This document shows positions 3,482 to 64,000 of a stretch of 64,000 nt of DNA, piece by piece. Within the stretch, counting starts at the first letter, position 1, and each line of letters starts with the position of its first letter. The DNA is taken from contig CAITGV010000001.1 of the NCBI GenBank assembly GCA_903892035.1, positions 91,624 to 155,623 on the forward strand. The letters are read 5' to 3'. The notes under the pieces are model-generated. The model ran no database searches. It saw only the letters and a program-made list of their open reading frames with translations, and was not told where the DNA came from. The position numbers and the translations under genes are program-made. The DNA comes from an uncultured bacterium (GTDB lineage Bacteria; Patescibacteriota; Minisyncoccia; Phycocordibacterales; UBA9973).

Positions 3482-3482
3482 G

Positions 3483-4247: not shown

Positions 4248-4250
4248 ACG

Positions 4251-5012: not shown

Positions 5013-5036
5013 ACGATCTGCGTCATTAATATATAC

Positions 5037-6368: not shown

Positions 6369-6420
6369 TCAAAAAACGCCTACTAAACTATCGACTGGGG
6401 CGATTCAAAAAAGACTTACG

Positions 6421-48179: not shown

Positions 48180-48499
48180 ATATAAAACATATTAACACAA
48201 ATCAAAGATTCATCAATTCCTTTAGTGATTCAATAATATAAGTTGGATTTTTTGTTTCTTCGTTTGGAACCTCATCTTTAAACTTTCCTTTCTTTATCCA
48301 TAATTATTTTTCTTTACACCATTCCATAATTTCCAATGCTTCAGGAAATTCCATATTAGTTTCTGGGTCATGCAATGTCCTTCCCCAGTCAAAAATTATT
48401 GCTTTAATATTCATCTGCGGGTGGTACTAGACGAAGTTAGAACCTTCATAATGCTTAATTCTAGCACTAAATTCTCAATTGTGAACACTTGGTAGGCAT

Positions 48500-49891
48500 T
48501 TAAGCAGACTTAGTATATTTTCCCTCCATATCAGTATGTTTTACTATTTGCTCAATTTTTTCACCATCACCTCTGTCATCTAGTTTTATATAAACTCCGA
48601 CCCTTTCAATCACAGGAAGTAATTGAACTTCATTGTCATAATTTCCACCACCTTTTTCAAGCTGAAACCATACCATTGTCAGTATACTGTCATTTTCTTT
48701 ATAGAGGTCCAAATTGTACCAGATAACGAAATCTAACTCACCCCAATCGCTTGAATCAATTCTAATTGAGGATTTTGGCAAAAGCTCTCCTTTTTCTCTT
48801 ACTACTTTACTTGTTTCTAGTAAACCATCTTCGTCACCACAGTATGCTCCAGACAATAAGTTTACTCTTGTATATTTAGAATCTGTTGAGTTTACAAGAT
48901 GTACTTCAAAAGTGCTATCTTCTTCATTCATTATAAATGCCACAAACGGTTTATCTATCTCTGATTTTACTTTTAGAACAGATACCATTTCTGACTCTTT
49001 CATTTTTTCTTGGAAGTCTGCAAAAGTACTAAGGCAGTCTGCGATGTGTGCCATCAGAAGAAATGTTATCATATCTTCTTTGCTGTGCTCCTCTATATTT
49101 TTAATAACCGCTTTAAACGCAGTCATATCTGCGAGAAAACTTCGTTCAAATGCAGGAATGTCATTATGTTTCCGAAGAATACCAATATCAGATTGTGTAC
49201 GTTTACACAATTCAATTACTTTCTCTGCCATAAATGAACTTTTAAACACGCGACTTATTTCATATAGAATATATGCCAAATTCCATTCAATATAAGAAAT
49301 ATGTCCTTCATCTAAAGCTTGTACCCTGTACAATTCAATATCTATTTCTAAAAGGTCTTGCCTGAGAGGACTTTCAAACCAGCATTCCAATATTGTGGCG
49401 ATAACTTTGCGAGTGTAATGGATTATTTTTTCTTTTGGGGCATTGAACCTATCAAAAGTTTTTTCTCCATCTATTTTATAATCAGCAATAAGCTCTGATG
49501 TGTTTGAGATTATATCGGCGGATTTTAAGAGTAAAGAATCATTTGAGAAAGTTTTGATATGCTCTAGTGCTTCAGCTTTTCGCTCTACCCAAGACAAAGA
49601 CTTGTCTTGCTCTGTCACACTTAAAACCAAATCAGATACTCTCTGACCAAACATATCAGTAATCATTTCTTTAGTGACTTTGTGTTCAGTCACACTATCC
49701 TCAATAGTATCGTGCAGTATTCCAGCGACTACCACATCCTCTGTAGCCCCTGTATTAGCCAGTATTAGCCCCACAGAGAGCGGATGAGTGATGTATGGGA
49801 CATCTTTGCCTTTCCTTTTTTGCTTCTGGTCCAGCTCGTGGGTTTTGATTGCTAAGTTTATTGCTTTTTGAATGCGTGATGTATATATCAT
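48500..49891 (-). CDS. SpoT/Mesh1-type HD-domain (p)ppGpp hydrolase-like domain fused to a ~270-aa unknown C-terminal domain
   Basis: YITHPLSVGLILA...AGILHDTIED...FGQRVSDLV...LLLKSADIISN matches Rel/SpoT HD-domain blocks. No synthetase domain. Confidence 0.6.
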   Translation of the reverse strand: MIYTSRIQKAINLAIKTHELDQKQKRKGKDVPYITHPLSVGLILANTGATEDVVVAGILHDTIEDSVTEHKVTKEMITDMFGQRVSDLVLSVTEQDKSLSWVERKAEALEHIKTFSNDSLLLKSADIISNTSELIADYKIDGEKTFDRFNAPKEKIIHYTRKVIATILECWFESPLRQDLLEIDIELYRVQALDEGHISYIEWNLAYILYEISRVFKSSFMAEKVIELCKRTQSDIGILRKHNDIPAFERSFLADMTAFKAVIKNIEEHSKEDMITFLLMAHIADCLSTFADFQEKMKESEMVSVLKVKSEIDKPFVAFIMNEEDSTFEVHLVNSTDSKYTRVNLLSGAYCGDEDGLLETSKVVREKGELLPKSSIRIDSSDWGELDFVIWYNLDLYKENDSILTMVWFQLEKGGGNYDNEVQLLPVIERVGVYIKLDDRGDGEKIEQIVKHTDMEGKYTKSA

Positions 49892-50142
49892 AATATTTAT
49901 AATTATTTTTATAATACTCTTAACGCAATAGTTGCGGACTAGGCAAACAAAAAAGCGACTAAGAGATTTACACCAGTACGACTTACTGATAGAAATCTCC
50001 CAACCGCTTTAACGCTAGTCAGTCATTTATAACTTGTGGCTCATCGCAGATTTCCCAACTTGCCTACCCATTTAAGGGAGATATAAACGGTCTGATTTGC
50101 TTGCTCAGACTACAATGTTTCTAATAAAGAACTACACTTACA

Positions 50143-51639
50143 CTATATCACAGAAAGCAGATGCTTCCAAATCGCATACATCGCATATGTATCTAGCTTG
50201 CAATACTTTAAAAGGTCCTGAATCTGAGTTTGCTTATCAGTTTCACTGTATTGGTCTGTGACAATCTTATTCCAAGTATCTGAAGCCACAGCCCCATTTT
50301 GTATGCCAAGCTCTTTATAACTCAAATCCGAGAGCGTAGGCAACACAAATTTGATAGAAGTCTTACCTTTAAATCCCTTGTGAACATACATCTGTTTTTT
50401 AAACACATCTTCCAAATCAACAACTTTTGAGTTTAAGTTTTCTAAGAAATCTTTATATTCAGGGTTTCTTTCAACAAGCTTATTATTGATACCCATTTCA
50501 AAACTTTTATTCCAGACAATTATAGAGCCAGTTTTCGGTAGCTGTTTCTGTAGAGCTTCTATAAATTCTATGTCGGGCTTTGTTGATTCGGAGAATATAA
50601 ATTCGCTGTGGGCTGGCTCTATACTTTCTTCGCTTGCTATATGCAAGGAAAATTGAAATGGTATCTGGTTGAATGGACCATAGCCAGAAAATCTAGGGAT
50701 AGCTGATGGAAATGTCTCGTAATCTAAAAATGATATTGGATACTTAATCGTCTCAAGAAATTCACTGATTGCATTTTTATCAATCAATTTCTTGTCTATC
50801 TGTGCAACTTGAACCTGATTCTTTTGAATATCACTTAGCTCAAAGTCCTCTGGTACCTCTAGTATAGAAAACTTCTCTAGGTTCATATCTACAAGGTCCT
50901 CAAGTTTTTTCTTTGATAAACCGATGCGGGCTATGTCGTGAATGCTGTAATCAGAAACATCAGGATTGGAATACTTGAAAGTCGTACAGTGTGAGCTTCT
51001 ACCTCTGGTGATACATTTACACTCTCCGTGCGGTTCTTCAGTCTGAGATAGTACACCAAAGGCACTATCCATATCAGAGCTGACAGCATCAATAATACCG
51101 TTTACTTTGTCTGTAAAATCTTCTTTAGTAAGTAGCCCATTTAAATCAATGTCTCCCGCACGAATATATTCTTTATTTAAACGCACGAGATATAGTTTGT
51201 TTATAGGTATATTATTTTCTTTCAAAACAACATACTGAAAAGCTAAATCGTTAGAATAGATTTCATCTTTTGCTTTCTTGTTTTCTCCACTATTGGAAGC
51301 CTTTACTTCATAAACATCATACGCTCCTACTTCACTGTTCCAGACAAAAATATCAGAAATCATTTTAAACTTTTCTGTTTCAAATACTGGCTGATATATA
51401 ACTGGTGTTTTCTTTTCAATCAAACTTTTGGTCAATTCTGTATCATCTCTATCTTCCACCAAAACACCATTTGGAAACAACCCTCGTGCGAGCGTATCCA
51501 CATCATTACCAGTCTCAATAATCATCATTTCAAACTCTGAAAGTGGCTGTGATTTATACACCTCAGGCTTGTGAATCTTCAGCCAAGCATTCTTACCGCA
51601 ATCTTGGTATATAAGATAGTTTGTTTTTGATAGTTTCAT
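50143..51639 (-). CDS. DUF2779-like predicted dual nuclease (N-terminal PD-(D/E)xK plus C-terminal DnaQ-like exonuclease motifs)
   Basis: N-terminus LSKTNYLIYQDCGKNAWL. D..YEVK motif. C-terminal FLDYETF and YCKLDTYAMY. 3-nt gap to the RM gene. Confidence 0.45.
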   Translation of the reverse strand: MKLSKTNYLIYQDCGKNAWLKIHKPEVYKSQPLSEFEMMIIETGNDVDTLARGLFPNGVLVEDRDDTELTKSLIEKKTPVIYQPVFETEKFKMISDIFVWNSEVGAYDVYEVKASNSGENKKAKDEIYSNDLAFQYVVLKENNIPINKLYLVRLNKEYIRAGDIDLNGLLTKEDFTDKVNGIIDAVSSDMDSAFGVLSQTEEPHGECKCITRGRSSHCTTFKYSNPDVSDYSIHDIARIGLSKKKLEDLVDMNLEKFSILEVPEDFELSDIQKNQVQVAQIDKKLIDKNAISEFLETIKYPISFLDYETFPSAIPRFSGYGPFNQIPFQFSLHIASEESIEPAHSEFIFSESTKPDIEFIEALQKQLPKTGSIIVWNKSFEMGINNKLVERNPEYKDFLENLNSKVVDLEDVFKKQMYVHKGFKGKTSIKFVLPTLSDLSYKELGIQNGAVASDTWNKIVTDQYSETDKQTQIQDLLKYCKLDTYAMYAIWKHLLSVI

Positions 51640-51641
51640 AA

Positions 51642-53921
51642 CTATTTCAACAGCTCATATTTAAACAATTTTGGTGTGATATATCTTGCGTAGTAGTTCT
51701 TAAGTTTCTTTTTAAGATTCTCTAATTCACCATTGAGTGTTGAGTAGTGATAAACTATTTTATTATTTTCATCTTTCTCCGATGTATTTAATTCCATTTC
51801 AATTTGGTAAGGACCGTACGCTAATTTTTTACTATAGTTTTCTGTCTTCTTAGCTTCAACTAAAACAGCTTCCCATATCTTTACTAATTCTTTTTCGTCA
51901 CCATTTAATTTGAATTTTTCAAGCTGTTTACTTGCTAGTGTGTCATTATCAAAACACAATTCATTTTTATAGAATCGTTTGTCGCTACCAGTAAAAGAAA
52001 TACATTTATTGTATCGAGATAAACATGCAAAGATAAAGCATGATTTCAAGAAGTCTTTATCTTTTGTGTATTTATCACCACCATCACCAGTGGTAAAATA
52101 AACATCTTTTTCATACCACTTTTCTTGAGGGTAAAGTTTTGCTGAAAAAAGTGGTAATTTTTCAAAGTAATTATCGTCTCGCAAATAAAAACCATTTTTT
52201 CTTAAATTTATAGTTGTCCTTGTTAAATTTTTTGCTTGTCCATTAAACATCAAACCGACTAAGTGTAAGTAAGCGATTATATTTTTATTGTAAATATTTT
52301 CTGTAGCAGTGCTTTTCTGTTTTGGTGCTTCATAACCATCCGCTCCACACCAAACACCATTAGTAATATCATCCTTTAGTACTCTTCTGTCAAAATAAAC
52401 TTCATTCGGTGATTTATAACATTTACGAATGATTATGTCTTGAATTTGAAAAATCGTATCATCAGAAACATCAGCTGTATTTTTTGTGTTAATATCAAAA
52501 GCATTCAAAGTAAAATTTTCCTGATTTTTGTCAAAATTTTGCCACAAAATGCAAGAGATTGTTGATGGAGAAGCATGAAAAAATTTGCGATTAAAAGCAA
52601 AACCAAGTTTAAATGTTTTGTTTACAAGTCCAATATTTTTAAAGTATTTTACTGGACTGAATAAAATATAACTATCGGTAGGTTGCCTCAAGTAATAATG
52701 AAACCCAGACCATATAAATAAGTTGGCTAATTCCTTTGATGGAACATTTCCTTTCATTTTTGATTTAAAATTTTTCTTAAATTCAGTTGAAATAAAAGAA
52801 TTTTTACCAACATTACGAGATACTCCAGTTTCCATCGTATCCCCAGAAGCATCACTATATGGTGGGTTCTCAAATAAAATTACCGTACATTTTGAATTAT
52901 CAGTATATTGTTTAATAATTTCATTATTTACAAAATCTTCACTAAGAGCGTCTGCATTTACCACAAAGCCAGCAGAAAATTCTACGTTGTCATCAGTTGG
53001 TGGAATAATATGACGAACACGTCCATTGAAACGTTCTAACAAAACCTTGTATTCATAATATTCATAAGTACTAACAATGGTGTGCTCAAGTTCTTCACTA
53101 GAAAGCTCTGCTTCCAAATTTCCAGTCCCCGCACATCGGTCTAAAATAATATAATCATTACCCTTAGGAACAAGCTTGATTGCTTCACGAACAAGCTCTA
53201 CAGATTTTTTTGCATAAGCAGGTGGAGTAAAGAATGCACCGAGTTCTTTTTTTATCAAATTATCATTCAACTTATCCATCAAATACTTAAATTTGATGTT
53301 TGTTTTTTCCTTAAATGGCAGAATATAGTCCTTGAACTTTATTGGTTTGCGAATTTCGCCACCGTCTTTATCATCAAGATAATCACTTTTCTTTGCAGTT
53401 GGATTTTCTCGGTAAAATTTTTCCGCCCATCCAACAATACAATCCTCATCAATTTTTATTTTAGTGAAATTATTTTCTTTTAGTATTTTTAAAATCTTGT
53501 CTGCACCCATACCCGTAGAGTAGTCAATTTCTATTGGCTGTTTTTTTATTACAAAACCATCATTATTTTTACTTGCTCCACCATAATAAATTTGGTGAAT
53601 TTCTTCAAAATAATCTCCGCTATCAAAAATATTTGCCTTGCTCTGATTCAACGAAATAAGCAAAATATTTTTGGGCACTGGATTACCAGTAATTCTTAGT
53701 CGTGAAAGATACTTAATTGCCTGAAAAAGTACTTGCTGTGTGTTGTTGATGTTTAATTTAAATTCAAAAATATTCCCTTTATTAACACCATCGGTGTTAG
53801 CAATTAAAATATCATTTTCATCAATGTTTATTCCAAAATTCTTGAAAAAGTGAAGTTGACCTTCCCGTTCAGTGGTAAAAGTTTTATTTAGTGTTTTTTT
53901 ATTTTTAGTTTCTGTTTTCAT
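51642..53921 (-). CDS. type IIG/IIL restriction-modification enzyme (PD-ExK nuclease fused to gamma-class N6-adenine methyltransferase and TRD)
   Basis: N-terminal D..EFK motif. GAFFTPP (motif X), DRCAGTGN (motif I), NPPY (motif IV). ORF open to 53972. Confidence 0.65.
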   Translation of the reverse strand: MKTETKNKKTLNKTFTTEREGQLHFFKNFGINIDENDILIANTDGVNKGNIFEFKLNINNTQQVLFQAIKYLSRLRITGNPVPKNILLISLNQSKANIFDSGDYFEEIHQIYYGGASKNNDGFVIKKQPIEIDYSTGMGADKILKILKENNFTKIKIDEDCIVGWAEKFYRENPTAKKSDYLDDKDGGEIRKPIKFKDYILPFKEKTNIKFKYLMDKLNDNLIKKELGAFFTPPAYAKKSVELVREAIKLVPKGNDYIILDRCAGTGNLEAELSSEELEHTIVSTYEYYEYKVLLERFNGRVRHIIPPTDDNVEFSAGFVVNADALSEDFVNNEIIKQYTDNSKCTVILFENPPYSDASGDTMETGVSRNVGKNSFISTEFKKNFKSKMKGNVPSKELANLFIWSGFHYYLRQPTDSYILFSPVKYFKNIGLVNKTFKLGFAFNRKFFHASPSTISCILWQNFDKNQENFTLNAFDINTKNTADVSDDTIFQIQDIIIRKCYKSPNEVYFDRRVLKDDITNGVWCGADGYEAPKQKSTATENIYNKNIIAYLHLVGLMFNGQAKNLTRTTINLRKNGFYLRDDNYFEKLPLFSAKLYPQEKWYEKDVYFTTGDGGDKYTKDKDFLKSCFIFACLSRYNKCISFTGSDKRFYKNELCFDNDTLASKQLEKFKLNGDEKELVKIWEAVLVEAKKTENYSKKLAYGPYQIEMELNTSEKDENNKIVYHYSTLNGELENLKKKLKNYYARYITPKLFKYELLK

Positions 53922-54046
53922 AGGCATCCGTACTGAGATGCCTAAAAACAAAATAGGCACCCCGAGTAGCAAGGTGCCCCAAGATAACAGCTTTCGCCGT
54001 TGGTCCTGATTCCCTGACTAGGGTGCCCATTATGGGCAGGACCAAC
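53922..54046. other. cluster of nested GC-rich hairpins in the divergent intergenic region
   Basis: AGGCATC/GATGCCT, GGCACC/GGTGCC, and GTTGGTCCTG/CAGGACCAAC enclosing CCCT..AGGG and CCCA..TGGG. Confidence 0.45.
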
Positions 54047-54170
54047 AACAAAAAGCATAAAACTTCTTGAAAAACTATTATCTTGGGGCAACATAAATAT
54101 AGCAAAAAATACTTAATTTTACCAGTCAAATATGATAAAATGTCTTTGTTTTCAATAAACCACCATTACA

Positions 54171-55283
54171 ATGAATAAACTGCATTCAAAACTATATACT
54201 GCAAAAAAACTCCTACTGAGCCATTTGGAAGTGAACGGTAAAAGAAACACTTTCTCTAAGCTAGATTTTTCAAAAAGCACTCTAACCGCTTTAGAGCAAG
54301 ATGGGCTAATAAAATTTGATAAGCCTTTATTGAGCAAGAAATATATCAATAATTATCAAAGTGCCAGAAAAACATTTGAAAGCATACAAGAAAAAAAGCG
54401 TCTAGCTTCTCTTTCTTTTGGTGGACCTCGAAGCTCGTATGGTCTTGAGCAGACAAAGAAAGAATTTGAAAATTATCTAGCTGATAAATACTGTAGTCTC
54501 GGAAAAGGGCTATATGAAAAACTTCAAGAAAGCCCAGAGATTGAAATTGACCACTTAAGTTTTCAGAGTATCGCAACGAAAGATTTTGCAAACGATTCTT
54601 TAAGTTTTAACCTAGAATTTTCACCTGAAAAAATACAAGAGTTTTTGAATGAGAAAATGGATTTGTTTATTACAGACGAGTTAGAATTGTCTGATGACCA
54701 AGCCCATAGATTTTTAAGCTATGAGAAACAAAAAGAGCAGTTTTCTATTGGTATTGTGAAGCTAACAAATACTGGATATTCTGCAAATAATTTAAAGATA
54801 GATTATATGCAGATTTTTAAGAAAGAGGATTTATTGCAAACAAACTTTGTTGAAACAGCTCTAGCTATGGAAAGAGAGGGATTGATAGAGGTAAAAAATA
54901 TCATAGAAACAACGCCAGCAAACCCTGTAGTTATAACTAGTCAAGATGTATTTAAATATCCTACGATTATACAGCTTAAGGTTCTTGGTAAATTCTCGCC
55001 TTACTATGAACAAGTTTATAAGAAATACTCACCTAAAACACAGGAATCAACCCAAGAAGCCTTAACGCCAAACAATAAGAAATTGAAACTACTTGAAAAA
55101 TTGAAAGAGGAAAAAGATTTAATGCCTAAATGGAAAACAGTTATGGATATTCATCCCCCTAAATTCTCTAGTTGGATGAGAGAGTGCGGTATTGATGACT
55201 ACACCCAGCTAAGAAATATTCTTGATAGTCTTCAAGAAGAAGAATTACTTATTTCTATTAAGTCTGTTAATCCAGCTATGTGA
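54171..55283 (+). CDS. hypothetical protein (cargo of the integrated element)
   Basis: 370-aa ORF with no recognised motif. Confidence 0.35.
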   Translation: MNKLHSKLYTAKKLLLSHLEVNGKRNTFSKLDFSKSTLTALEQDGLIKFDKPLLSKKYINNYQSARKTFESIQEKKRLASLSFGGPRSSYGLEQTKKEFENYLADKYCSLGKGLYEKLQESPEIEIDHLSFQSIATKDFANDSLSFNLEFSPEKIQEFLNEKMDLFITDELELSDDQAHRFLSYEKQKEQFSIGIVKLTNTGYSANNLKIDYMQIFKKEDLLQTNFVETALAMEREGLIEVKNIIETTPANPVVITSQDVFKYPTIIQLKVLGKFSPYYEQVYKKYSPKTQESTQEALTPNNKKLKLLEKLKEEKDLMPKWKTVMDIHPPKFSSWMRECGIDDYTQLRNILDSLQEEELLISIKSVNPAM

Positions 55284-55801
55284 TGATGAATTATCTACAA
55301 ATACAATTTCCTGAAGACTTTGAGAAAAGGTATAAAAAATACAAGGACCAGATTTTGCATTCCTCTACTAAAAATACTTTCTCAAAGATACCCTCAGATG
55401 AACCAACAGTTGCCACCCAAGAAACAGAAAATCAAAAAGGTGTTAAATCAAACCCTGAATCAGGCAAGAAAATGGCTTCAATTGAGTATAACCCAATCAC
55501 TGGTGATGGAATTGTAAATACAACAAGTTTTAAATTCAAAGACCACCAGCCTGAATATAGGTTATTTAAACTTCTGTGCGAAAAGGTTAATAATAAAATT
55601 CAACGCTATGACGTTCTTGTAGCAATCCATTTTTATGAAGATGGTGCAGATGTTGAACCAGCTAGAAAGTCTCTTGAGACTGAAGAAATAAATAAAGTTG
55701 TTAAAAAAATCAGAGGGAAAACTGGGCTTACTACAAAACAGCTAGTAAATAACAATGGAAATGTAACATTACTCGGGAATATAGTACCAAATCAAACCTA
55801 A
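55280..55801 (+). CDS. hypothetical protein
   Basis: Overlaps the upstream stop by 4 nt. No motif. Confidence 0.3.
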   Translation: MMMNYLQIQFPEDFEKRYKKYKDQILHSSTKNTFSKIPSDEPTVATQETENQKGVKSNPESGKKMASIEYNPITGDGIVNTTSFKFKDHQPEYRLFKLLCEKVNNKIQRYDVLVAIHFYEDGADVEPARKSLETEEINKVVKKIRGKTGLTTKQLVNNNGNVTLLGNIVPNQT

Positions 55802-56167
55802 AACCATACTGAATCTAGTCTAAATCGCATCTAACTCGAATAAGTGAATAAATATAGGATGATACTAAGCCTATATTTTTTTTGGCTGGGGAAATCTTGA
55901 ACCCCCTGTAAGCCCTTTGCTTACTCGGCAGGTGCCTCACGGCGTTCAAGAACCTACCGAGTAAATAGTGGGCTTGCCTATGTTACCAGAACAAGCCATA
56001 ACAGAATACAAGAAGCTCTACGAAGCCCGTTACGGCGTCGTTTTAAGCGATGCTGAGGCATCGTTGCGGGCGAATAACCTTGTAAATTTCTATAAGGCTA
56101 CTTTGGGGTCGGAACATCCAAATACAACGAAAGTGGTCGATGAACCTCGTTGTAATTATTAACAAAT

Positions 56168-56515
56168 ATGGCAAAAATAAATTGTCATAAAATTTACAGC
56201 AGTATGAGCTACACAGTAAAAGAACTAGCAAACGAGTTAGGAATATCAGAAAAAACAATTTTCCGTTGGATTGAAAATGGTTTAAGAATTGTAGATGGAA
56301 GCAAGAAACCCATCCTGATAATGGGTGTGGAAGTAAAAGATTTTACAAGAAGAAAAGATTCAAAAAAGAAAGTAGGTAAAATTAAAAGGAATGAGTTTTT
56401 GTGCCTAACGTGTAAGAAAGGGAGACGTGCAAAAAGAGGTTCAATTAAGAAACTGAAGAGCAAGAAACTAGGAGAATGTTATGTCTGTAACGGGAAAATG
56501 AGCAGAACAATCTAG
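56168..56515 (+). CDS. excisionase/MerR-like HTH protein with C-terminal zinc ribbon
   Basis: YTVKELANELGISEKTIFRWIENG HTH and CLTC..CYVC. Immediately upstream of the tyrosine integrase. Confidence 0.45.
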   Translation: MAKINCHKIYSSMSYTVKELANELGISEKTIFRWIENGLRIVDGSKKPILIMGVEVKDFTRRKDSKKKVGKIKRNEFLCLTCKKGRRAKRGSIKKLKSKKLGECYVCNGKMSRTI

Positions 56516-56594
56516 CTCGACCAAAAGGACTATGTAGTATTGTCTCTTCTAGTTTAAATGTCCATTATTAACTATTAACGCATCTATTAAAATT

Positions 56595-57701
56595 ATGACA
56601 AAAACAACGCTCGAAAATGAGCAAATAAAGAGGGATTTTTTTGACCAACTAAAGGGAGCAAAAGGGTTTGCAAAAAGCTCAGTAGTAGCTTTTTCAGATG
56701 CAATATCCCAGTGGCAAAAATTCACTGAAAATGAAAGTTTTTCAAAGTTTACTAAAGAAGAAGCGACAGCTTTTGTGGAGTGGTTAAGCACCAAGCCATC
56801 TAAAACAAAAACTGGTAAAATCGCTCTAGTTACTCAAGACAATTATCTTCGCAGAGTGAAGAAGTTTTTTGAGTGGCTGTCTGAGCAATCGGGATATAAA
56901 AGCAAAATATCAAAAAATGAAGTAGAGTGGCTGAGGCTTTCCAAGACCGATGCTCGTATTGCAAGAATGGGGACTACCCGCACAGAGCCTGTATTTGAGG
57001 AGGTAAAAAAAGTTATAGAAAGTATAAAAGGTAAAAGTGAAGTAGATATGAGGGATAGAGCCATTATTTCTCTAGCATTGATTACAGGGGCTCGTATTTC
57101 CGCCATTACCTCTTTGAAAATGCGTAGCTTCGACAAGAAAAAGAATGTCGTGTATCAAAGTCCAAAAGATGGTATTAAAACAAAAAGCTCAAAGCTGATA
57201 GCTACCTTGATTTTCCCTATTGAATGGCGTGAACCAGAAAGATATTTTGTCGAATGGTATGAGTATCTAGAGTCAAAAGGTTTCCGCCCAGATGACCCTA
57301 TTTTCCCAGCAACATTTAATGATATAGGTAATAAAAATACTAGCAAAGCAGTGGTCAGCAAGCGTTTTTGGAGTAATGCTAACTCTGCACGAAATATCTT
57401 TAAAACAAGATGTTTGGATGCTGGCATTCCTTACTTCAATCCTCACTCCTTTCGTCACCTAATTGTGGGTATGTGGATGGAGGAGATACTTCCCGAGAAA
57501 TATAAAAAGGCTATCAGCCTGAATCTTGGTCACGAAAGTGTTTCTACTACCTTTGATTCATATGGTCATAGTAATATGACCCAAAATGAGGTCTTTGGAA
57601 TTATTAAAAATCTCAAGAATTTAAAAGCAGAGAGTAAAAGCACTTCGATAACACAAGAAGAAAGGGAGGCTATCGAGAAGCTACTTAAAAGAAGTGCATA
57701 A
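56595..57701 (+). CDS. tyrosine site-specific integrase
   Basis: N-terminal SAM-like domain. Catalytic R (ITGARIS), HSFRHL (HxxR) and the SYGH Tyr motif. Confidence 0.8.
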   Translation: MTKTTLENEQIKRDFFDQLKGAKGFAKSSVVAFSDAISQWQKFTENESFSKFTKEEATAFVEWLSTKPSKTKTGKIALVTQDNYLRRVKKFFEWLSEQSGYKSKISKNEVEWLRLSKTDARIARMGTTRTEPVFEEVKKVIESIKGKSEVDMRDRAIISLALITGARISAITSLKMRSFDKKKNVVYQSPKDGIKTKSSKLIATLIFPIEWREPERYFVEWYEYLESKGFRPDDPIFPATFNDIGNKNTSKAVVSKRFWSNANSARNIFKTRCLDAGIPYFNPHSFRHLIVGMWMEEILPEKYKKAISLNLGHESVSTTFDSYGHSNMTQNEVFGIIKNLKNLKAESKSTSITQEEREAIEKLLKRSA

Positions 57702-57742
57702 CACCACTTGCTATGTAAAGAATAGTAAAGTATACTAGATAT

Positions 57743-58690
57743 ATGAATAATAATAAATTGGGTAAATTAAGCAAGGTAGACTTGCGGGAAATTTGGAAAA
57801 ATGAAGAGTATGACTTTTCAGCTTGGCTGGCTGAAGAAGAAAATCTTGCTCTTTTGTCCGACGAACTTGGTGTTTCAATAAAATTGATTGAGAGAGAAGC
57901 GGGTGTTGGAAAATACAGCTTGGATATTTTAGCGGAAGAGGAAGGCACGGGGCATAAAATCGTGATAGAGAACCAACTTGAAAATACTGACCACGACCAT
58001 TTGGGAAAAATCATCACGTACTCTGCTGGGCACGATGCGAAAATCATCGTTTGGATTTTCAAAGACATCTGTGAAGAGCACCGCAGTGCGATTGACTGGC
58101 TCAACGACAACACAGGCGATGACCTTCACTTTTTCGCTGTGAAGTTGGAAGTATGGAAAATCAACGAATCCGAATCAGCTCCGAAGTTTCAAATAATTTG
58201 TAAGCCGAACGAGTGGAAAAAAATTGTAAAACATAGTTCGGGAAGTAAGGATTTGGGAAGTACTGAATTGAAAAAACTTGATTTTTGGACAAAACTCAAA
58301 TCATACGCTTTAGATAAAAAAGTAACTCTATTCACACGAACACCCAACCCGTATCACTGGTATGATATATCTATTGGAACTTCTGGAGCTCATATTTCAC
58401 TCACTATCGGTATTAGAGAAAGTAAAATTGGTTGTGAACTTTATATTGACGATAACAAGCCCTTATTTGAGCATCTCAAAACAAAAAAGATGGAGCTTGA
58501 AGGACAGCTCAACGGGAAGCTTGAGTGGATAGTAGCAGAAAAGGCGTGTCGCATCGTGTTACGAAAAGAAAATGCCAACTTGGATGATGAAGAAAATACC
58601 AGCACCTTATTTGATTGGATGATTGAAAAAGCGGTCGTTTTTCATAAAGTATTTAGTCCGTTAGTAAAGCAATACAAAAATGAGCAATAA
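57743..58690 (+). CDS. hypothetical protein with PD-(D/E)xK-like core (possible DUF4268-like)
   Basis: YSLDILAEEEGTGHKIVIENQLENTDHDHLGKIITY block. Confidence 0.35.
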   Translation: MNNNKLGKLSKVDLREIWKNEEYDFSAWLAEEENLALLSDELGVSIKLIEREAGVGKYSLDILAEEEGTGHKIVIENQLENTDHDHLGKIITYSAGHDAKIIVWIFKDICEEHRSAIDWLNDNTGDDLHFFAVKLEVWKINESESAPKFQIICKPNEWKKIVKHSSGSKDLGSTELKKLDFWTKLKSYALDKKVTLFTRTPNPYHWYDISIGTSGAHISLTIGIRESKIGCELYIDDNKPLFEHLKTKKMELEGQLNGKLEWIVAEKACRIVLRKENANLDDEENTSTLFDWMIEKAVVFHKVFSPLVKQYKNEQ

Positions 58691-58871
58691 AGATTTTTAC
58701 ACAGCCAAAGAACTGGCAGATAAACTGCGAGTAAATATAATGACCATCTATCGCTATATAGGTGCGAAAGGTGCAAAGAAATTAAATGCCTATAAATTTG
58801 GCAAGGAATTTAGAATTGATAAGAAAGAGTTTGATAGTTTCTTGAACAAGGCAAAAACTAATGGAAAATAA
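58680..58871 (+). CDS. excisionase-family HTH DNA-binding protein
   Basis: YTAKELADKLRVNIMTIYRYI HTH. Overlaps the serine recombinase start. Confidence 0.5.
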   Translation: MSNKDFYTAKELADKLRVNIMTIYRYIGAKGAKKLNAYKFGKEFRIDKKEFDSFLNKAKTNGK

Positions 58872-60468
58872 AACTGTCAAAATGATATATGGTGGCTACC
58901 ACAGAAAATCTACCGAATCTGAGGATAGGCAGGTTCTTTCTATTGATTCTCAAATTGATGAGGGTAAGAGAATCGCAGATAGCTTAGGGATAAAAGTGAA
59001 ACCTGAGCATATTCTTTCAGAATCAAAATCAGCCAAAGTAACTGGTAAGCGATTAAAGTTCCAGCAAATGCTCAGTATGATTGAGCGAGGAGAAATAAAT
59101 GGAATCATTGTATGGCACGCAGACAGGCTTTCAAGAAATGCTATGGACTCAGCTTTACTTATTGACCTGATAGATAAAGGAAAACTTATTGAAATAGTTA
59201 CGCCAGCACAAACATTCAGGAATACTCCGTTAGATAAATTTATGTTTATGTTCCAGTGTAGTCAGGCAAAAATGGAGAACGACAAAAAAGGCGTTGATGT
59301 AACAAGAGGACTTCATAAAAAAGCTAGTCTCGGAATGTATCCTGCACCAGCACCTGTTGGTTACAAAAATGATAAGTATGCAGAGAAAGGAAACAAAGTG
59401 CCACTAGTAGATGCGGAAAGATTCCCACTGGTGCGAAAAATGATAGACCTTATGCTTACAGGAAATTATACTGTGGCGGAGATATGGAGAATCGCAAGAA
59501 ACGAATGGGGCTTTACTATGCCGAGTGGAAAGAAAATCAGTAGACCTACTGTTTATAGAATTTTCTCAAACCCTTTTTATTATGGGAGATACGAATATCC
59601 TCTCAGAAGCGGTAAGTGGTATGACGCTATCCATACTCCGATGATGGATGTGGAGGAGTACGACAAGATTCAATTTATCCTTGGCAAGAAAGGTAAACCT
59701 AGACCGAAGTCTCACATATTTGATTTTACAGGAATGATGCACTGCGGAGAGTGCGGAGCAAGTATTACAGCCGAGACAAAAATTAAAAGGCAGAAAAATG
59801 GGAACATTCATACCTATGTTTACTATCACTGCACTAAAAGAATAAATCCAAACTGCACGCAAGGCTCTATTGAGGAGAAAGATTTAAAGAAGCAAATTGT
59901 AGCTGAAATTGAGAGTATTGAAATACCGCCAGAATTTCATAGTTTTGCTATGAAATGGTTTAAGAAAGAGAACGAAAAAGAAATTGATGGTCGTAATGCT
60001 GTTATAAAAGCCAATGAGAAAGCCTACAAGGCTTGTTTAGCGAAGATTGACGGCTTAACCGATATGAGAGCGGGTGGCGAAATATCAGCCGTAGAATTTG
60101 CTGAAAGAAAAATAAAATTCCTTGCAGAAAAGAAACAACTTGATAATTTATACGGTGATACAAGTAAGAGAGTAGATAGGTGGCTAGATACTGCCGATAA
60201 TATGTTTACTTTTATTGAAAACGCAAAAGATAAATTTGAAAATGGAACGATTCAGACAAGACGCTCAATACTTTCAACACTAGGTTCAGACCTCATACTA
60301 AAGGATAAAATACTCAGTATTGATATAGATAAATCACTCTTTCCAATAAAAAGAGTCTCAAAAGAGGCTAATGCAATTAGTAAACGGTTAGAACCTCTCA
60401 AAACTATTGATAAACAAAGAGAATTTGACCTTTTGTGTGATAAAAATCCCGTAATGCGGAGGCGGTGA
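58861..60468 (+). CDS. large serine recombinase (paralog of the 5037..6368 gene)
   Basis: YHRKST catalytic Ser, ADRLSRN, and zinc ribbon CGECGA...YYHCTKRINPNC. By eye about 45 % identical to the first recombinase. Confidence 0.85.
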   Translation: MENKTVKMIYGGYHRKSTESEDRQVLSIDSQIDEGKRIADSLGIKVKPEHILSESKSAKVTGKRLKFQQMLSMIERGEINGIIVWHADRLSRNAMDSALLIDLIDKGKLIEIVTPAQTFRNTPLDKFMFMFQCSQAKMENDKKGVDVTRGLHKKASLGMYPAPAPVGYKNDKYAEKGNKVPLVDAERFPLVRKMIDLMLTGNYTVAEIWRIARNEWGFTMPSGKKISRPTVYRIFSNPFYYGRYEYPLRSGKWYDAIHTPMMDVEEYDKIQFILGKKGKPRPKSHIFDFTGMMHCGECGASITAETKIKRQKNGNIHTYVYYHCTKRINPNCTQGSIEEKDLKKQIVAEIESIEIPPEFHSFAMKWFKKENEKEIDGRNAVIKANEKAYKACLAKIDGLTDMRAGGEISAVEFAERKIKFLAEKKQLDNLYGDTSKRVDRWLDTADNMFTFIENAKDKFENGTIQTRRSILSTLGSDLILKDKILSIDIDKSLFPIKRVSKEANAISKRLEPLKTIDKQREFDLLCDKNPVMRRR

Positions 60469-60542
60469 GATTCGAACTCACGGTCCTTTAAAGGGACGAC
60501 GGTTTAGTAAACCGTTGATTTAAACCACTCATCCACGCCTCC
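60457..60542 (-). tRNA. class-II (long variable arm, Ser-like) tRNA with anticodon loop UUACUAA, i.e. apparent anticodon ACU. CCA is not encoded.
   Basis: Hand-folded. Acceptor GGAGGCG/CGCCUCC, T-arm GUGAG-UUCGAAU-CUCAC, anticodon stem ACGGU/ACCGU, variable stem GUCC/GGAC. The last 12 nt are overlapped by the recombinase stop. Confidence 0.55.
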
Positions 60543-62550: not shown

Positions 62551-64000
62551 TTCCATATCAAAACATTTTCGTCTAGACTCTCAAACAGAGAGTAGCTTAA
62601 AACGCCTAGGTCTTGAAAAAATAAAGGACCTTATTTTTTATTTTCCAATTCGATATGGCGATATGAGTGCACTTAAAAATGTGGCTGATCTTGTCGCAGG
62701 AGAGACCGCGACTCTATATGGCACAATAAAAAATCCAAAAACAAAAAAAGGTTTTGTTTCAAAGATACCAATGGCTGAAGCAACATTTGAAGACCTATCG
62801 GGAAGCATAAAAATTATTTGGTTTCACCAAGCATATTTAGCAAAAATGGTTCACGACGGTCAATCTGTAAAACTTACCGGAAAAGTTTCAGAAAATAAAA
62901 ATGGTTTATACCTCTCAAATCCTGAATTTGAGAAAGTTTCCACAATGCCCATTGATAGCAACTCCTCACTTTTCAAAAATGGACAGAATAATGAGACAAT
63001 CTTTGGTGGCGGCTATCCTGTTTACAAAGAAACAAAAGGTCTTTCTTCAAAATGGATTTATCATACAATAATAAAAATTTTCAAAAGCGGGCTTTTAGAC
63101 AACATATCTGAATACTTACCAGAAAAAATATTAGAAAAATATCATCTACCGAAACTAAAAACAGCACTTATTTGGATTCACTCTCCAAAGAAGAAAGAGG
63201 ACGCCGAAAGTGCAAGAAAACGTTTTGCTTTTGAAGAAGTATTTTTTATTCAACTTCAACGTGCACATGAAAGAAATAATTTTGAAAAAAATAATGCATA
63301 CATTGTAAATACGGACAAAAATGATATAGAAAATTTTGTGAATCGTTTTCCATTTCAAATGACAAAATCTCAAGAGAATGCAATAAATGCAATTTTGGAT
63401 AATATGGAAAAATCAAACCCTATGGCTCGCCTACTCGAAGGTGATGTGGGTAGCGGAAAAACTGCTGTCGCTGCAACATCTGCGTATTCTGTTATAAAAA
63501 ATAGACCACCAAAGCCACAGGCCTTGCCTAGGGGAATTCCCCTAGGCAAGGCCTGTGGTGAAAGGCAAGCTTTTGGAAATCTTCAAGTCGCATATATGGC
63601 ACCAACAGAAATTCTTGCGACTCAACATTTTGAAAATTTTATTCAGTACTTCAAACACACCGGAATATCCATTGGATTAATTACTGGAAGTGGTTGCAGA
63701 AAATTTCCAACCAAAGTCGCATCTGCGCGTGAACCATGGACAAATATTTCTCGTGCACAACTTTTGAAATGGGTTGCAAATGGTGAGATTCCAATATTAA
63801 TTGGAACTCATGCTCTTATCCAAAAATCTGTAAAATTTAAAGATTTAGCACTTGTGATTGTCGATGAACAACATCGTTTTGGAGCCCTGCAACGCGCTCG
63901 ACTTGCAAAAAAAGAAAATTTTGCACCACACTACCTTTCAATGACTGCAACCCCAATTCCCCGCACATTGGCTCTCACAATTTATGGTGACCTCGACCTT
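62537..64000 (+). CDS. recG: ATP-dependent DNA helicase RecG (3'-partial, runs off the window)
   Basis: N-terminal wedge domain, helicase motif I GDVGSGKT, MAPTEILATQH, motif II VIVDEQHRFG. Alternative start at 62525. Confidence 0.85.
   Translation, partial: MQLSDSISKHFRLDSQTESSLKRLGLEKIKDLIFYFPIRYGDMSALKNVADLVAGETATLYGTIKNPKTKKGFVSKIPMAEATFEDLSGSIKIIWFHQAYLAKMVHDGQSVKLTGKVSENKNGLYLSNPEFEKVSTMPIDSNSSLFKNGQNNETIFGGGYPVYKETKGLSSKWIYHTIIKIFKSGLLDNISEYLPEKILEKYHLPKLKTALIWIHSPKKKEDAESARKRFAFEEVFFIQLQRAHERNNFEKNNAYIVNTDKNDIENFVNRFPFQMTKSQENAINAILDNMEKSNPMARLLEGDVGSGKTAVAATSAYSVIKNRPPKPQALPRGIPLGKACGERQAFGNLQVAYMAPTEILATQHFENFIQYFKHTGISIGLITGSGCRKFPTKVASAREPWTNISRAQLLKWVANGEIPILIGTHALIQKSVKFKDLALVIVDEQHRFGALQRARLAKKENFAPHYLSMTATPIPRTLALTIYGDLDL
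63515..63558. repeat. perfect 44-bp GC-rich palindrome inside recG, in frame
   Basis: CCACAGGCCTTGCCTAGGGGAA|TTCCCCTAGGCAAGGCCTGTGG. Encodes PQALPRGIPLGKACG between helicase motifs I and Ia. Confidence 0.8.

What the first reader, a model, noticed from the sequence alone, without database searches (positions are those of the whole stretch)
53922..60542. Integrated element carrying both a tyrosine integrase and a large serine recombinase, each with its own excisionase-like HTH, abutting a tRNA
Gene order is: xis-like HTH/Zn-ribbon, tyrosine integrase, PD-(D/E)xK-like protein, xis-like HTH, large serine recombinase, then a tRNA on the opposite strand. The last 12 nt of the tRNA 3' end are overlapped by the recombinase stop codon. 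That is the classic tRNA-integrated element junction, but here it is made by a serine recombinase, not a tyrosine one. Two complete recombination modules in tandem suggest nested or composite elements. The left side shows a nested GC-rich hairpin cluster and unknown cargo genes.
Basis: partly seen in the sequence, partly recalled or inferred. Interest (0 to 1): 0.65.

Follow-up and report, generated by a model that had tools for sequence, protein, structure and literature searches.

The report
tRNA-targeting serine-integrase element with paired tyrosine recombinase
A 12-kb mobile element sits at the end of a serine tRNA gene, inserted by a serine integrase whose gene runs across its own attachment site, so insertion swaps the enzyme's tail; the second (tyrosine) recombinase is a conserved partner, not a second nested element.

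Summary
Gene order, both recombinases and the 12-13 nt overlap between the serine recombinase (LSR) stop and an antisense tRNA-Ser are as described.

The element is larger than reported: about 12.04 kb, window 48416-60459. It is bounded by a 5-bp TGCGG repeat. Its left end is a conserved 75-bp block found at five other junctions.

The LSR made the junction:
- In 57 of 80 related genome loci the LSR 3' end abuts the 3' end of an antisense tRNA. Ten amino-acid types are used. Chance expectation is about 0.002 per locus.
- All four att states were found: attL and attR (window), attP (a 93%-identical relative, and an exact 9,885-bp free circle) and an empty tRNA-Ser(ACU) site.
- attP lies inside the LSR reading frame. 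The episomal enzyme therefore carries a conserved 24-residue tail (VLDEVRT...IVNTW) that integration replaces with RR.

The two recombinases are not nested elements. A p60, HTH-Zn, tyrosine recombinase, HTH_17, LSR module recurs in about 20 loci and in the free circle, and the catalytic residues are invariant. The tyrosine recombinase's job is unproven; multimer resolution is my leading guess.

Cargo looks defence-like (PDC-S11, nuclease, methylase-like protein).

Verdict: a new variant of a known kind.

The parts
48307..48414 (-). Host flank (original B arm side). A short HAD-like ORF (MNIKAIIFDWGRTL..., stop after 36 codons) starts 2 nt from the attL core.
   Evidence: In the empty-site relative L090/L091 a HAD-family gene follows tRNA-Ser(ACT) by 27 nt, and the flank CCGC|AACAGAATATT resembles the window's CCGC|AGATGAATATT. 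Protein similarity itself is not significant.
48416..48420 (+). attL core TGCGG, a copy of the last bases of the tRNA and its trailer.
   Evidence: The same 5 bp occur at 60455-60459. Homology to other elements starts exactly here.
48421..48495 (+). P' arm, which is also the orphaned coding sequence for the LSR's episomal C-terminal tail (VVLDEVRTFIMLNSSTKFSIVNTW + TAG at 48493-48495).
   Evidence: 98.7% identical block in L002/L003/L007, and related blocks in L011, L086 and L087, each with unrelated flanks on both sides. Fifteen such blocks translate to the same tail and stop at the same point. TTAGAACC lies 5 nt farther from the core than TTCGAAC does in the tRNA.
48500..49891 (-). Cargo: HD-domain (RelA/SpoT-type hydrolase-like) protein, 463 aa.
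   Evidence: Pfam HD_4 4.4e-14. A 75% identical homologue sits in another element of the family, L026.
50143..51639 (-). Cargo: DUF2779 protein (RecB/Cas4-like nuclease family), 498 aa.
   Evidence: Pfam DUF2779 1.9e-38. Weak Cas4 hit in PADLOC.
51642..53927 (-). Cargo: 761-aa protein with an NPPY motif (methyltransferase-like). No Pfam, PHROG, PDB or PADLOC match.
   Evidence: More than 3,500 homologues at 50-88% identity, stand-alone in varied contexts.
53925..54105 (-). It contains a promoter-like site (54105-54077), nested hairpins, a terminator-like hairpin with U tract (53979-53955) and a hairpin over the start codon (53944-53925).
   Evidence: No Rfam family. An analogous nested-repeat-plus-terminator layout occupies the same position in element L026.
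54171..55283 (+). Cargo or unknown: 370-aa protein.
   Evidence: No family hits. One weak relative in L015.
55283..55801 (+). Unknown 172-aa protein; relatives lie upstream of p60 in several elements.
   Evidence: L005/L010, L026, L042.
55980..56162 (+). p60: a 60-aa protein, the most widely conserved accessory gene of the family.
   Evidence: Found upstream of the LSR in 46 of 64 loci with enough sequence. Also in the free circle.
56204..56515 (+). HTH + Zn-ribbon (excisionase-family-like) protein, always paired with the tyrosine recombinase.
   Evidence: Co-occurs with TyrInt in 20 loci.
56523..56568 (+). Conserved non-coding motif upstream of the tyrosine recombinase (AAAGGACTAT ... TAAATGTCCATTAT). 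Candidate operator or recombination site. Single copy in the window.
   Evidence: Conserved across most loci and the circle. One copy only. Homology with L002 begins at this motif.
56595..57701 (+). Xer-like tyrosine recombinase, 368 aa.
   Evidence: PF00589 plus SAM-like N-terminal domain. Weak XerA/XerD/XerC matches. R167, K197, H284, R287, H313 and Y323 are invariant in 21 distinct homologues.
57708..57736 (+). Conserved promoter-like site TTGCTA-N17-TATACT. It normally drives HTH_17-LSR. It also marks a cargo hotspot.
57743..58690 (+). Cargo inserted inside the recombinase module: DUF4268 / PADLOC PDC-S11 candidate defence gene.
   Evidence: Absent from all relatives. Other inserts occupy the same spot in L006 and the circle.
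58680..58871 (+). HTH_17 excisionase-family protein. Its end overlaps the LSR start by 11 nt. Candidate directionality factor.
   Evidence: Pfam 8e-9; TIGR01764 1.1e-8.
58861..60468 (+). Large serine recombinase in its integrated (short, 535 aa) isoform. The last codons (...NPVMR) are the P arm of attP.
   Evidence: R15, S17, R89, R92 invariant; SPbeta integrase structures.
60455..60459 (+). attR core TGCGG.
   Evidence: Divergence points.
60457..60542 (-). Host tRNA-Ser(ACU). Its T arm and acceptor 3' strand form the B' half of attB. The tRNA stays intact.

Best explanation
Window 48416-60459 is a roughly 12.04-kb integrative element of a Patescibacteria-wide family. A large serine recombinase (LSR) inserted it at the extreme 3' end of the host tRNA-Ser(ACU) gene.

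Sites. attP lies inside the LSR gene. The P arm is the last conserved codons (...K-N-P-V-M-R). The crossover core (TGCGG here) equals the last bases of the tRNA and the start of its trailer. The P' arm carries a T-arm-like TTAGAACC placed 5 bp farther from the core than TTCGAAC is in the tRNA. That offset is the usual attP/attB half-site difference of serine integrases.

Consequences of integration. The mature tRNA is left unchanged. The LSR reading frame is cut. The episomal enzyme (557 aa) ends in a conserved 24-residue tail, VVLDEVRTFIMLNSSTKFSIVNTW. The integrated enzyme (535 aa) ends in RR, read from the antisense tRNA. The orphaned tail codons form the conserved left end of the element.

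Inferred steps. The tail swap lets the element make different integrase forms in the free and integrated states, as a built-in regulatory or directionality cue. HTH_17, and possibly p60, supply the excision factor.

The tyrosine recombinase. Together with its HTH-Zn partner it is a conserved, catalytically intact part of the same module, not a second element. Its most likely role (inferred, about 0.35-0.4) is Xer/Cre-type resolution of multimers of the free circular form, acting at the conserved site just upstream of its gene.

Cargo. It is defence-like: PDC-S11, a DUF2779 nuclease, an NPPY methylase-like protein and an HD protein.
For: - Junction generality. 57 of 80 genome loci have an antisense tRNA 3' end within 20 nt of the LSR's residue-532 equivalent, and 11 more show T-arm sequence where the contig ends. 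Chance is 0.0018 per locus.
- Left ends. The P' motif is preceded by a copy of the tRNA-specific core: GCGG for Ser, GCTGCG for Gln, GCTCCG for Asn, GTGCGCCC for Lys. The offset was exactly +5 in 10 of 10 pairs that could be resolved.
- Window ends. TGCGG occurs at 48416-20 and 60455-59. The 79-bp block recurs at 98.7% identity with unrelated flanks.
- attP observed. L149/L150 (LSR 93% identical) read ...CTCGTAATGCGG|GGGGTATTAGACGAAGTTAGAACC..., which equals the window's attR-left joined to attL-right. attP also appears in L052 and L066.
- Free circle. Four Logan contigs of 9,915 bp have 30-nt terminal overlaps and are exact rotations of one another. They carry the whole module.
- Empty site. 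In L090/L091, tRNA-Ser(ACT) is followed directly by a HAD gene. Sequence diverges from the occupied sites right after CCTCCGCA.
- Tail. Fifteen P' blocks translate to the same peptide with the same stop position. Differences are enriched at third codon positions (226/222/348). Long-tail isoforms exist in the protein database.
- Catalytic residues are intact in both enzymes.
- Module conservation is shown.
Against: - No attP or attB reads could be examined for this strain. Every contig carrying the exact flanking proteins is occupied. Current mobility of this copy is therefore unproven.
- The empty site comes from a distant relative (52% identity in the flanking protein), and the HAD synteny rests on motif-level similarity only.
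- P and P' arms, and B and B' arms, show little dyad symmetry (my own reading of the sequences).
- Any function of the tail is pure inference. Its first 25 bp or so may be conserved for DNA recognition alone.
- The tyrosine recombinase's role is untested. No replication gene was identified in the Tyr-type elements. The Tyr gene is swapped between near-identical LSRs (L006 94%/52%, L011 92%/42%), which argues for independence of the two enzymes.
- The L003-type arrangement is not explained: attP-like site, plus a perfect 202-bp inverted repeat starting at the core.
Confidence: 0.8

Rival explanations
1. Two independent mobile elements are nested or abutted: a tyrosine-integrase element sitting inside or next to a serine-integrase element.
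For: The Tyr module is exchanged between nearly identical LSR modules (L006, L011). A cargo gene (PDC-S11) sits between the two modules. Each recombinase has its own small HTH partner.
Against: The same order, p60, HTH-Zn, TyrInt, (HTH_17), LSR, with gaps as short as 38-90 bp, occurs in about 20 loci and in a free 9,885-bp circle. Only one pair of ends exists, and it is LSR-type. The conserved motif upstream of TyrInt is single-copy, so no Tyr-type attL/attR pair is present.
Confidence: 0.07
2. The tyrosine integrase, not the LSR, inserted the element into the tRNA in the classical way, and the LSR has another job.
For: tRNA 3' ends are the classic targets of tyrosine integrases (established knowledge; Williams 2002, cited within PMC12884075). 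A catalytically intact tyrosine recombinase is present.
Against: The repeat is only 5 bp, with no tRNA-segment duplication. Relatives lacking any tyrosine recombinase have the identical LSR-tRNA junction. Both attP arms are encoded within the LSR reading frame. The 5-bp half-site offset is an LSR signature.
Confidence: 0.03
3. The tyrosine recombinase is a second integrase or a cargo-exchange enzyme, not a multimer resolvase. It would let the circle use an alternative chromosomal site, or swap the variable cargo that lies between the P' end and its own upstream site.
For: Cargo between the P' end and the TyrInt-upstream motif varies from 0.68 kb to about 8 kb. Homology between the window and L002 starts exactly at that motif. 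HTH-Zn is excisionase-like and strictly co-occurs with TyrInt. In Tyr-less relatives the same slot holds a roughly 400-aa protein with weak rolling-circle Rep similarity.
Against: No locus was seen in which a junction is made at the Tyr site. The integron-integrase model scores 22.7 bits against a cut-off of 265. No attC-like repeats were found. No relatives occur in IMG/VR.
Confidence: 0.3
4. This copy is a fixed, no longer mobile island: a domesticated defence island with relic recombinases.
For: All 7 contigs carrying this exact LSR, and all 5 carrying the exact flanking gene, are occupied. The neighbouring HAD-like ORF is truncated.
Against: All module ORFs are full length with invariant catalytic residues. 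attL and attR match functional-looking attP and attB sites of relatives to the base. The tail-coding remnant is still intact, including its stop.
Confidence: 0.15

Closest known systems
Large serine recombinases (serine integrases) of phages and ICEs: phiC31, Bxb1, A118/LI, SPbeta SprA (YokA). SprA is the closest solved structure.
   Same: Resolvase + Recombinase + Zn-ribbon architecture with a catalytic Ser. Short att sites with a tiny core. The distal half-site motif sits 5 bp farther out in attP than in attB. A small HTH gene lies next to the integrase as candidate RDF, as with phiRv1 Xis (my knowledge).
   Different: The target is the 3' end of tRNA genes, and the family has retargeted among at least 10 amino-acid types. 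attP lies inside the integrase ORF, so integration changes the enzyme's C-terminus. The LSR is paired with a tyrosine recombinase. Sequence similarity to SprA is only E = 4.5e-12.
Classical tRNA-integrating genomic islands and prophages with tyrosine integrases (P4-like and others).
   Same: Insertion at the tRNA 3' end with the integrase gene next to the tRNA. The tRNA is kept intact. The cargo is a defence/accessory island.
   Different: The enzyme class differs. The repeat is 5 bp rather than a duplicated tRNA segment of tens of bp. Recognition uses a T-arm mimic in P' rather than sequence identity.
attP-within-a-gene switches: myxophage Mx8 intP/intX, and integration-dependent immunity of mycobacteriophages such as BPs (my knowledge, not checked in the library).
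   Same: Integration cuts a phage reading frame at attP and yields a protein with a different C-terminus in the integrated state.
   Different: Those are tyrosine-integrase systems. Here the gene cut is a serine integrase. The lost tail is a conserved 24-residue peptide ending in W, not an ssrA-like tag. Its effect is unknown.
Tandem recombinase modules: SCCmec CcrA/CcrB, Tn554 TnpA/TnpB.
   Same: Two site-specific recombinase genes are kept adjacent on one small element.
   Different: Those pairs belong to one enzyme class and act together at one site. Here one enzyme is serine-type and one tyrosine-type, and the Tyr gene is exchanged independently of the LSR.
Xer/dif, Cre/loxP and plasmid multimer-resolution systems.
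   Same: A simple tyrosine recombinase (SAM-like N-terminal domain plus catalytic domain, no arm-binding domain). A conserved site lies next to its gene on an element that exists as a free circle.
   Different: Matches to the XerA/C/D models are far below their cut-offs. No dif-like 28-bp site was recognised. Function is untested.

Membership tests
Large serine recombinase (serine integrase) | N-terminal resolvase catalytic domain with the nucleophilic Ser and conserved Arg residues | tested here: met
   PF00239 7.1e-19. Y13, R15, S17, R89 and R92 are invariant in 13 homologues.
Large serine recombinase (serine integrase) | Recombinase domain plus zinc-ribbon domain C-terminal to the catalytic domain | tested here: met
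   PF07508 3.9e-7 and PF13408 9e-11. Aligns to SPbeta integrase structures over residues 12-347. The coiled-coil was not examined.
Large serine recombinase (serine integrase) | Short att sites sharing only a few bp; attP half-site longer than the attB half-site | tested here: met
   5-bp core TGCGG. TTnGAACC at position 21 in P' against 16 in B' in 10 of 10 pairs.
Large serine recombinase (serine integrase) | Catalyses attP x attB integration; excision needs an RDF | not testable with these tools
   All four site states are seen in sequence data, but no biochemistry is available.
Tyrosine recombinase superfamily | Catalytic R-K-H-R-H/W-Y residues | tested here: met
   R167, K197, H284, R287, H313 and Y323 are invariant in 21 distinct homologues. 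PF00589 3.5e-14.
XerC/XerD/XerA chromosome-dimer resolvases | Score above the curated equivalog cut-off | tested here: not met
   XerA 62 bits against 220. XerD 49.5 against 329.6. XerC 48.4 against 335.
Integron | Integron-type integrase plus attI/attC cassette array | tested here: not met
   TIGR02249 scores 22.7 bits against 265. No repeated cassette sites; the upstream motif is single-copy.
Classical tRNA-integrated island (tyrosine-integrase type) | Direct repeat of a tRNA 3' segment (typically more than 15 bp) at the far end | tested here: not met
   No such repeat in 40-64 kb. Only TGCGG is shared.
Prophage | Virion, packaging or lysis genes inside the element | tested here: not met
   Only integrase/excisionase and HD-hydrolase PHROGs were hit. 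No close LSR relatives (best 47%) and no Tyr relatives in IMG/VR.
ICE / IME | Relaxase and/or type IV secretion genes | tested here: inconclusive
   None was found by Pfam in the window's element. Three proteins remain unannotated. Tyr-less relatives carry weak Rep_trans / G2P-like proteins.
PADLOC PDC-S11 candidate defence gene | Full-length match to the PDC-S11 profile | tested here: met
   1.1e-116 over residues 1-310 of 315. Defence activity was not tested.

The most novel reading that the evidence does not exclude
Patescibacterial LSR elements form an undescribed integrase system. The integrase gene spans its own attP, which produces two enzyme isoforms. The free circle makes a long form with the conserved VLDEVRT...VNTW tail. 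The integrated copy makes a short form ending in antisense-tRNA codons. This isoform switch would set directionality or enzyme stability. A Xer-like tyrosine recombinase would maintain the plasmid-like state. Retargeting between tRNAs would need only a change of the 4-8 bp core, because P' mimics the universal T arm. That would make the family a naturally reprogrammable, tRNA-directed serine integrase.
Probability: 0.3. Interest if true: 0.85.

Novelty: new variant of a known kind. Interest (0 to 1): 0.68.

Why it matters
Serine integrases are the main tools for inserting large DNA into genomes, and their target choice is hard to predict or change.

This family shows a natural solution. One half of attP imitates the universal tRNA T arm. 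A short core matches the end of the chosen tRNA. Relatives have moved among at least ten tRNA types.

The integrase also reads across its own attachment site, so the cell makes different enzyme forms before and after insertion. That is a simple, testable candidate for how a one-way enzyme senses its state.

The family also gives a first defined class of small plasmid/chromosome-switching elements that carry restriction and defence genes in Patescibacteria (CPR). Mobile elements of that group are barely described. Seven library searches for serine recombinase/integrase with tRNA targets or attP inside the integrase gene, and for integrative elements in CPR/Patescibacteria/Parcubacteria, found no description of tRNA-targeting serine integrases or of this element family.

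Tried and rejected
- Direct repeat of the tRNA 3' segment. The repeat finder over 40-64 kb gave nothing beyond chance. The real repeat is 5 bp and was found through homology breakpoints.
- Rfam at permissive E-values on the hairpin cluster gave only chance hits.
- Empty site in the same species. Exact-protein look-ups of the LSR and the right-flank gene returned only occupied contigs. The nearest relatives of the flank gene are at most 52% identical.
- Exact P' search in IMG/VR gave nothing. The Tyr recombinase has no relatives in IMG/VR. LSR relatives there are at most 47% identical.
- A second copy of the TyrInt-upstream motif, which would indicate a nested Tyr element, was not found.
- Divergent tyrosine recombinases in 'Tyr-less' relatives. 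Ten upstream ORFs had no PF00589 hit; two had weak rolling-circle Rep hits.
- Conservation of the structured leader upstream of homologues of the 761-aa protein was not seen.
- HAD orthology by tblastn was not significant.
- The integron, prophage and classical Tyr-island readings were rejected on tested features (see membership table).
- Structure prediction of the long isoform was considered. It was not run, because the output would not show where the tail docks.

Full report

Yes. ORF listing, Pfam, ARAGORN and Rfam confirm these plus-strand features:
- An HTH/Zn-ribbon protein at 56168/56204-56515. Its HTH_17 score is below Pfam's cut-off. It has two CxxC pairs.
- A tyrosine recombinase at 56595-57701 (PF00589, 3.5e-14, with a SAM-like N-terminal domain).
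- A DUF4268 protein at 57743-58690.
- An HTH_17 excisionase-family protein at 58680-58871, which overlaps the next gene by 11 nt.
- A large serine recombinase (LSR) at 58861-60468 (Resolvase, Recombinase and Zn_ribbon_recom domains).

A tRNA-Ser lies on the minus strand at 60456/60457-60542. Its 3' end is overlapped by the last 12-13 nt of the LSR ORF. The GC-rich hairpins at 53922-54100 are also real: the minus strand folds at -82.9 kcal/mol, z = -7.8.

The window is a low-GC bacterial chromosome with type IV pilus genes, ligA and pyrG. LSR relatives are annotated as Patescibacteria/Paceibacterota MAGs. The source contig is 358,928 bp. An independent Logan assembly (L001) is 100% identical over 52385-60485, so the arrangement is not an assembly chimera.

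**2. The LSR-tRNA junction is a family trait.**

A scan of one genome per species returned 80 loci with LSR relatives at 39-94% identity.
- In 57 loci, an antisense tRNA 3' end lies within 20 nt of the position equivalent to LSR residue 532.
- In 11 more, T-arm sequence is visible but the contig ends.
- Six loci are too short to judge.
- Two are in the attP state.
- Four are otherwise different.

The chance expectation is 0.0018 per locus. The tRNAs are Gln (22), Asn (15), Ser (6), Lys (6), Glu, Gly, Arg, Trp, Ile and Leu. Many database LSRs therefore end in antisense T-arm codons such as '...RDSNP'.

**3. The true ends of the element.**

No long repeat of the tRNA exists. Homology breakpoints give the ends instead.

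A 79-bp stretch at 48417-48495 is 98.7% identical to a stretch 0.68 kb upstream of the recombinases in L002/L003/L007. It recurs in L011, L086 and L087. In each case the flanks on both sides are unrelated, and the stretch is preceded by (T)GCGG. The same TGCGG lies at 60455-60459, which is where relatives diverge from the window. The element is therefore 48416-60459, with 12,039 bp between the crossover points.

Across the family, a P' motif (GGnnnTnGACGAAGTTAGAACC) lies upstream of the LSR. It is always preceded by a copy of the core that fits the tRNA at the other end: GCGG for Ser, GCTGCG for Gln, GCTCCG for Asn, GTGCGCCC for Lys. The TTnGAACC of P' starts at position 21 from the core start. 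The TTCGAAC of the tRNA T arm starts at position 16. The offset was exactly 5 in 10 of 10 pairs my script could resolve. From established knowledge of serine integrases (LI integrase-attP work, Rutherford and Van Duyne), a 5-bp outward shift of the distal motif is what distinguishes attP from attB half-sites.

**4. All four att states were found.**

- *attL and attR:* the window itself.
- *attP:* L149/L150 encode an LSR 93% identical to the window's. They read ...AATAAAAATCTCGTAATGCGG|GGGGTATTAGACGAAGTTAGAACC.... This is the window's attR-left joined to its attL-right. L052 and L066 are also in the attP state.
- *Free circle:* four Logan contigs from different runs (L145-L148; LSR 70% identical) are each 9,915 bp. 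Each has a 30-nt terminal overlap, and they are exact rotations of one 9,885-bp circle with 0 mismatches. The circle carries p60, HTH-Zn, TyrInt, a 94-aa gene, HTH_17, the LSR with intact attP, and a type III restriction-modification pair.
- *attB:* in L090/L091, the right-flank protein is 52% identical to the window's. There tRNA-Ser(GCT) and tRNA-Ser(ACT) sit in tandem, and a HAD-family gene follows 27 nt later with no recombinase nearby.

An alignment of three occupied sites and this empty site is identical through ...CCTCCGCA and diverges immediately after. In the window, the base after attL starts a short ORF with a HAD-motif-I-like N-terminus, and the flank resembles L090's (CCGC|AGATGAATATT against CCGC|AACAGAATATT). 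The protein-level match is not significant. L088, a 48% relative with the same right-flank synteny, is occupied at the same tRNA.

**5. attP lies inside the LSR gene, so integration swaps the enzyme's tail.**

Read in the LSR frame, P + core + P' gives ...NPVMR-VVLDEVRTFIMLNSSTKFSIVNTW-stop. The stop is the TAG at 48493-48495, exactly where the conserved left-end block ends.

Fifteen independent P' blocks, from elements aimed at Ser, Gln, Asn and Lys tRNAs, translate to x-L-D-E-V-R-T ... F-x-[IV]-V-[NRK]-x-W-stop. All have the same length. Differences are enriched at third codon positions (226/222/348), and 201 of 539 differing codon pairs are synonymous. Database homologues with this tail exist: P0002 at 93% identity and 557 aa, plus P0012, P0017, P0025, P0027, P0102 and others.

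What is shown: the episomal LSR is 557 aa with a conserved tail, and the integrated LSR is 535 aa ending in RR.

What is inferred: that this difference matters for stability, directionality or autoregulation. The nearest precedents I know are Mx8 intP/intX and the integration-dependent immunity of mycobacteriophages. Both are tyrosine-integrase systems, and I did not check them in the library.

**6. The two recombinases are one module, not two elements.**

The order p60, HTH-Zn, TyrInt, (HTH_17), LSR recurs in about 20 of 64 loci with enough upstream sequence. TyrInt-LSR gaps are as short as 38-90 bp. The same order is in the free circle.
- HTH-Zn and TyrInt always co-occur, except in the minimal 3.7-kb L002-type element.
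- The catalytic R167, K197, H284, R287, H313 and Y323 are invariant in 21 distinct homologues.
- The LSR's R15, S17, R89 and R92 are invariant.
- Only LSR-type ends exist.
- The conserved motif upstream of TyrInt (56523-56568) is single-copy.

The Tyr gene is nevertheless swapped between nearly identical LSRs (L006 94%/52%, L011 92%/42%). The breakpoint is a conserved promoter, TTGCTA-N17-TATACT at 57708-57736. That promoter is also a cargo hotspot: it is followed by PDC-S11 in the window, about 530 bp in L006 and a 94-aa gene in the circle.

In Tyr-less relatives, the slot between p60 and the LSR holds a roughly 400-aa family with weak rolling-circle Rep hits (Rep_trans 6.5e-4, Phage_CRI 2.9e-4).

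The circle assembles cleanly with no break at attP, so its free form dominates in those samples. That points to a plasmid-like state. My leading guess for the tyrosine recombinase is therefore Xer/Cre-type multimer resolution at its upstream site (about 0.35-0.4). A second integration route or cargo exchange is the main rival (about 0.3). Matches to the Xer and integron models are far below their cut-offs.

**7. Cargo and the hairpin cluster.**

Cargo genes:
- HD-domain protein at 48500-49891.
- DUF2779 nuclease-family protein at 50143-51639.
- A 761-aa NPPY protein at 51642-53927. It has no Pfam, PADLOC, PHROG or PDB match, but more than 3,500 homologues at 50-88% identity in varied contexts.
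- Two unknown proteins at 54171-55801.
- The PDC-S11 candidate defence gene (1e-116).

No virion, relaxase or secretion genes were found.

The hairpins lie between the divergent cargo operon and the plus-strand genes. On the minus strand there is a promoter-like site at 54105-54077, then nested hairpins, then a terminator-like hairpin with a U tract at 53979-53955. The 5' half of that terminator stem overlaps the closing stem of the nested structure. A final hairpin at 53944-53925 covers the start codon. This looks like an attenuator-type leader. It matches no Rfam family and is not conserved upstream of homologues of the 761-aa protein. Element L026 has an analogous layout at the same position. 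This part remains a weakly supported inference.

**8. Comparison, novelty and verdict.**

This element works like a serine-integrase integrative element, and it passes every LSR feature I could test. It fails the tested features of a classical Tyr-integrase tRNA island, an integron and a prophage.

The new points are:
- tRNA 3'-end targeting by an LSR clade, with a T-arm mimic in P'.
- attP embedded in the integrase ORF, with a conserved episome-only tail.
- A conserved serine-plus-tyrosine recombinase module.

Seven literature searches found no description of these features. The library is incomplete, so prior description cannot be excluded.

I rate it a new variant of a known kind, interest 0.68.

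Unresolved:
- Whether this particular copy is currently mobile.
- The functions of the tail and of the tyrosine recombinase.
- The L003-type loci, where the LSR is followed by an attP-like site and a perfect 202-bp inverted repeat that starts at the core.

Noticed in passing
window 60457-60542 (-); also L006 4419-4504, L088 5307-5393, L090 4941-5026, L091 634-719: The target tRNA is tRNA-Ser with anticodon ACT (A34), which is very unusual for bacteria. It is conserved in at least 5 genomes, always near a tRNA-Ser(GCT). L006 has compensatory changes in two acceptor-stem pairs and the variable arm, so it looks like a functional gene.
   Followed up: partly
window 1-6400: A second mobile region sits at the left edge. 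GC is 44-49% against about 36% for the host. It carries a DNA methylase (321-1616), a terminase-like protein (1997-3481) and a second LSR (4938-6368). That LSR is 41% identical to the studied one over 352 aa, but has a different C-terminus and no tRNA at its end. A LOOT RNA (RF03000, 76 bits) lies at 4758-4880 (-), just upstream of it.
   Followed up: partly
L003 3819-4020 and 6700-6901 (same arrangement begins in L002, L004, L007, L008): In the 94%-identical relative, the LSR is not next to a tRNA. It is followed by an attP-like site with a variant tail (CVLNEVRMYFELNPDDQ). This is one arm of a perfect 202-bp inverted repeat whose two arms both start at the TGCGG core. The arms enclose 2.7 kb carrying a trypsin-like protease and an HTH_31 gene. 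It could be a tandem array, an invertible segment or a pseudo-site; this is unresolved. L053 also has internal P-remnant|P' junctions.
   Followed up: partly
window 51642-53927 (-): The 761-aa NPPY-motif protein belongs to a large family of more than 3,500 members, 50-88% identical across Patescibacteria, Planctomycetes and Clostridia. It has no Pfam, PDB, PHROG or PADLOC match and usually occurs as a stand-alone gene.
   Followed up: partly
L023, L027, L031, L033, L034, L038 (ORFs directly upstream of the LSR): Relatives without the tyrosine recombinase carry a roughly 400-aa protein family in the same slot. It has motifs FSIPK and HFCKNI and weak Rep_trans / phage G2P similarity. This suggests rolling-circle replication of those elements.
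   Followed up: partly
L147 5320-5775 (free 9,885-bp circle): The gene just after attP in the circle encodes a 151-aa protein with a weak FtsK-gamma-domain hit (5.2e-5, below cut-off). That domain activates XerD in E. coli (my knowledge). This is a possible link to the Xer-like recombinase.
   Followed up: no
window 57743-57757 and L147 3078-3092: Different cargo genes inserted after the conserved promoter start with the same five codons (MNNNK), although the rest of the genes are unrelated. This hints at cassette exchange downstream of a fixed leader.
   Followed up: no
window 60485 (end of L001; a 1,781-bp ENA contig ends 1 nt later): Independent short-read contigs break inside the tRNA T arm 17-18 nt after the LSR stop. 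Related elements at tRNA-Ser(TGA) share sequence up to about 60488. This is probably a graph branch between co-occurring variants.
   Followed up: partly
window 63515-63558: A perfect 44-bp palindrome (CCACAGGCCTTGCCTAGGGGAA / TTCCCCTAGGCAAGGCCTGTGG) lies in host DNA to the right of the element (I12).
   Followed up: no
L111 and L132, about 9433-9460 (IMG/VR viral contigs): Distant LSRs (about 27% identity) on viral contigs also have a P'-like CCGAAGTTAGAACC right at their 3' end. The attP-in-ORF design may extend to phages well beyond this clade.
   Followed up: no
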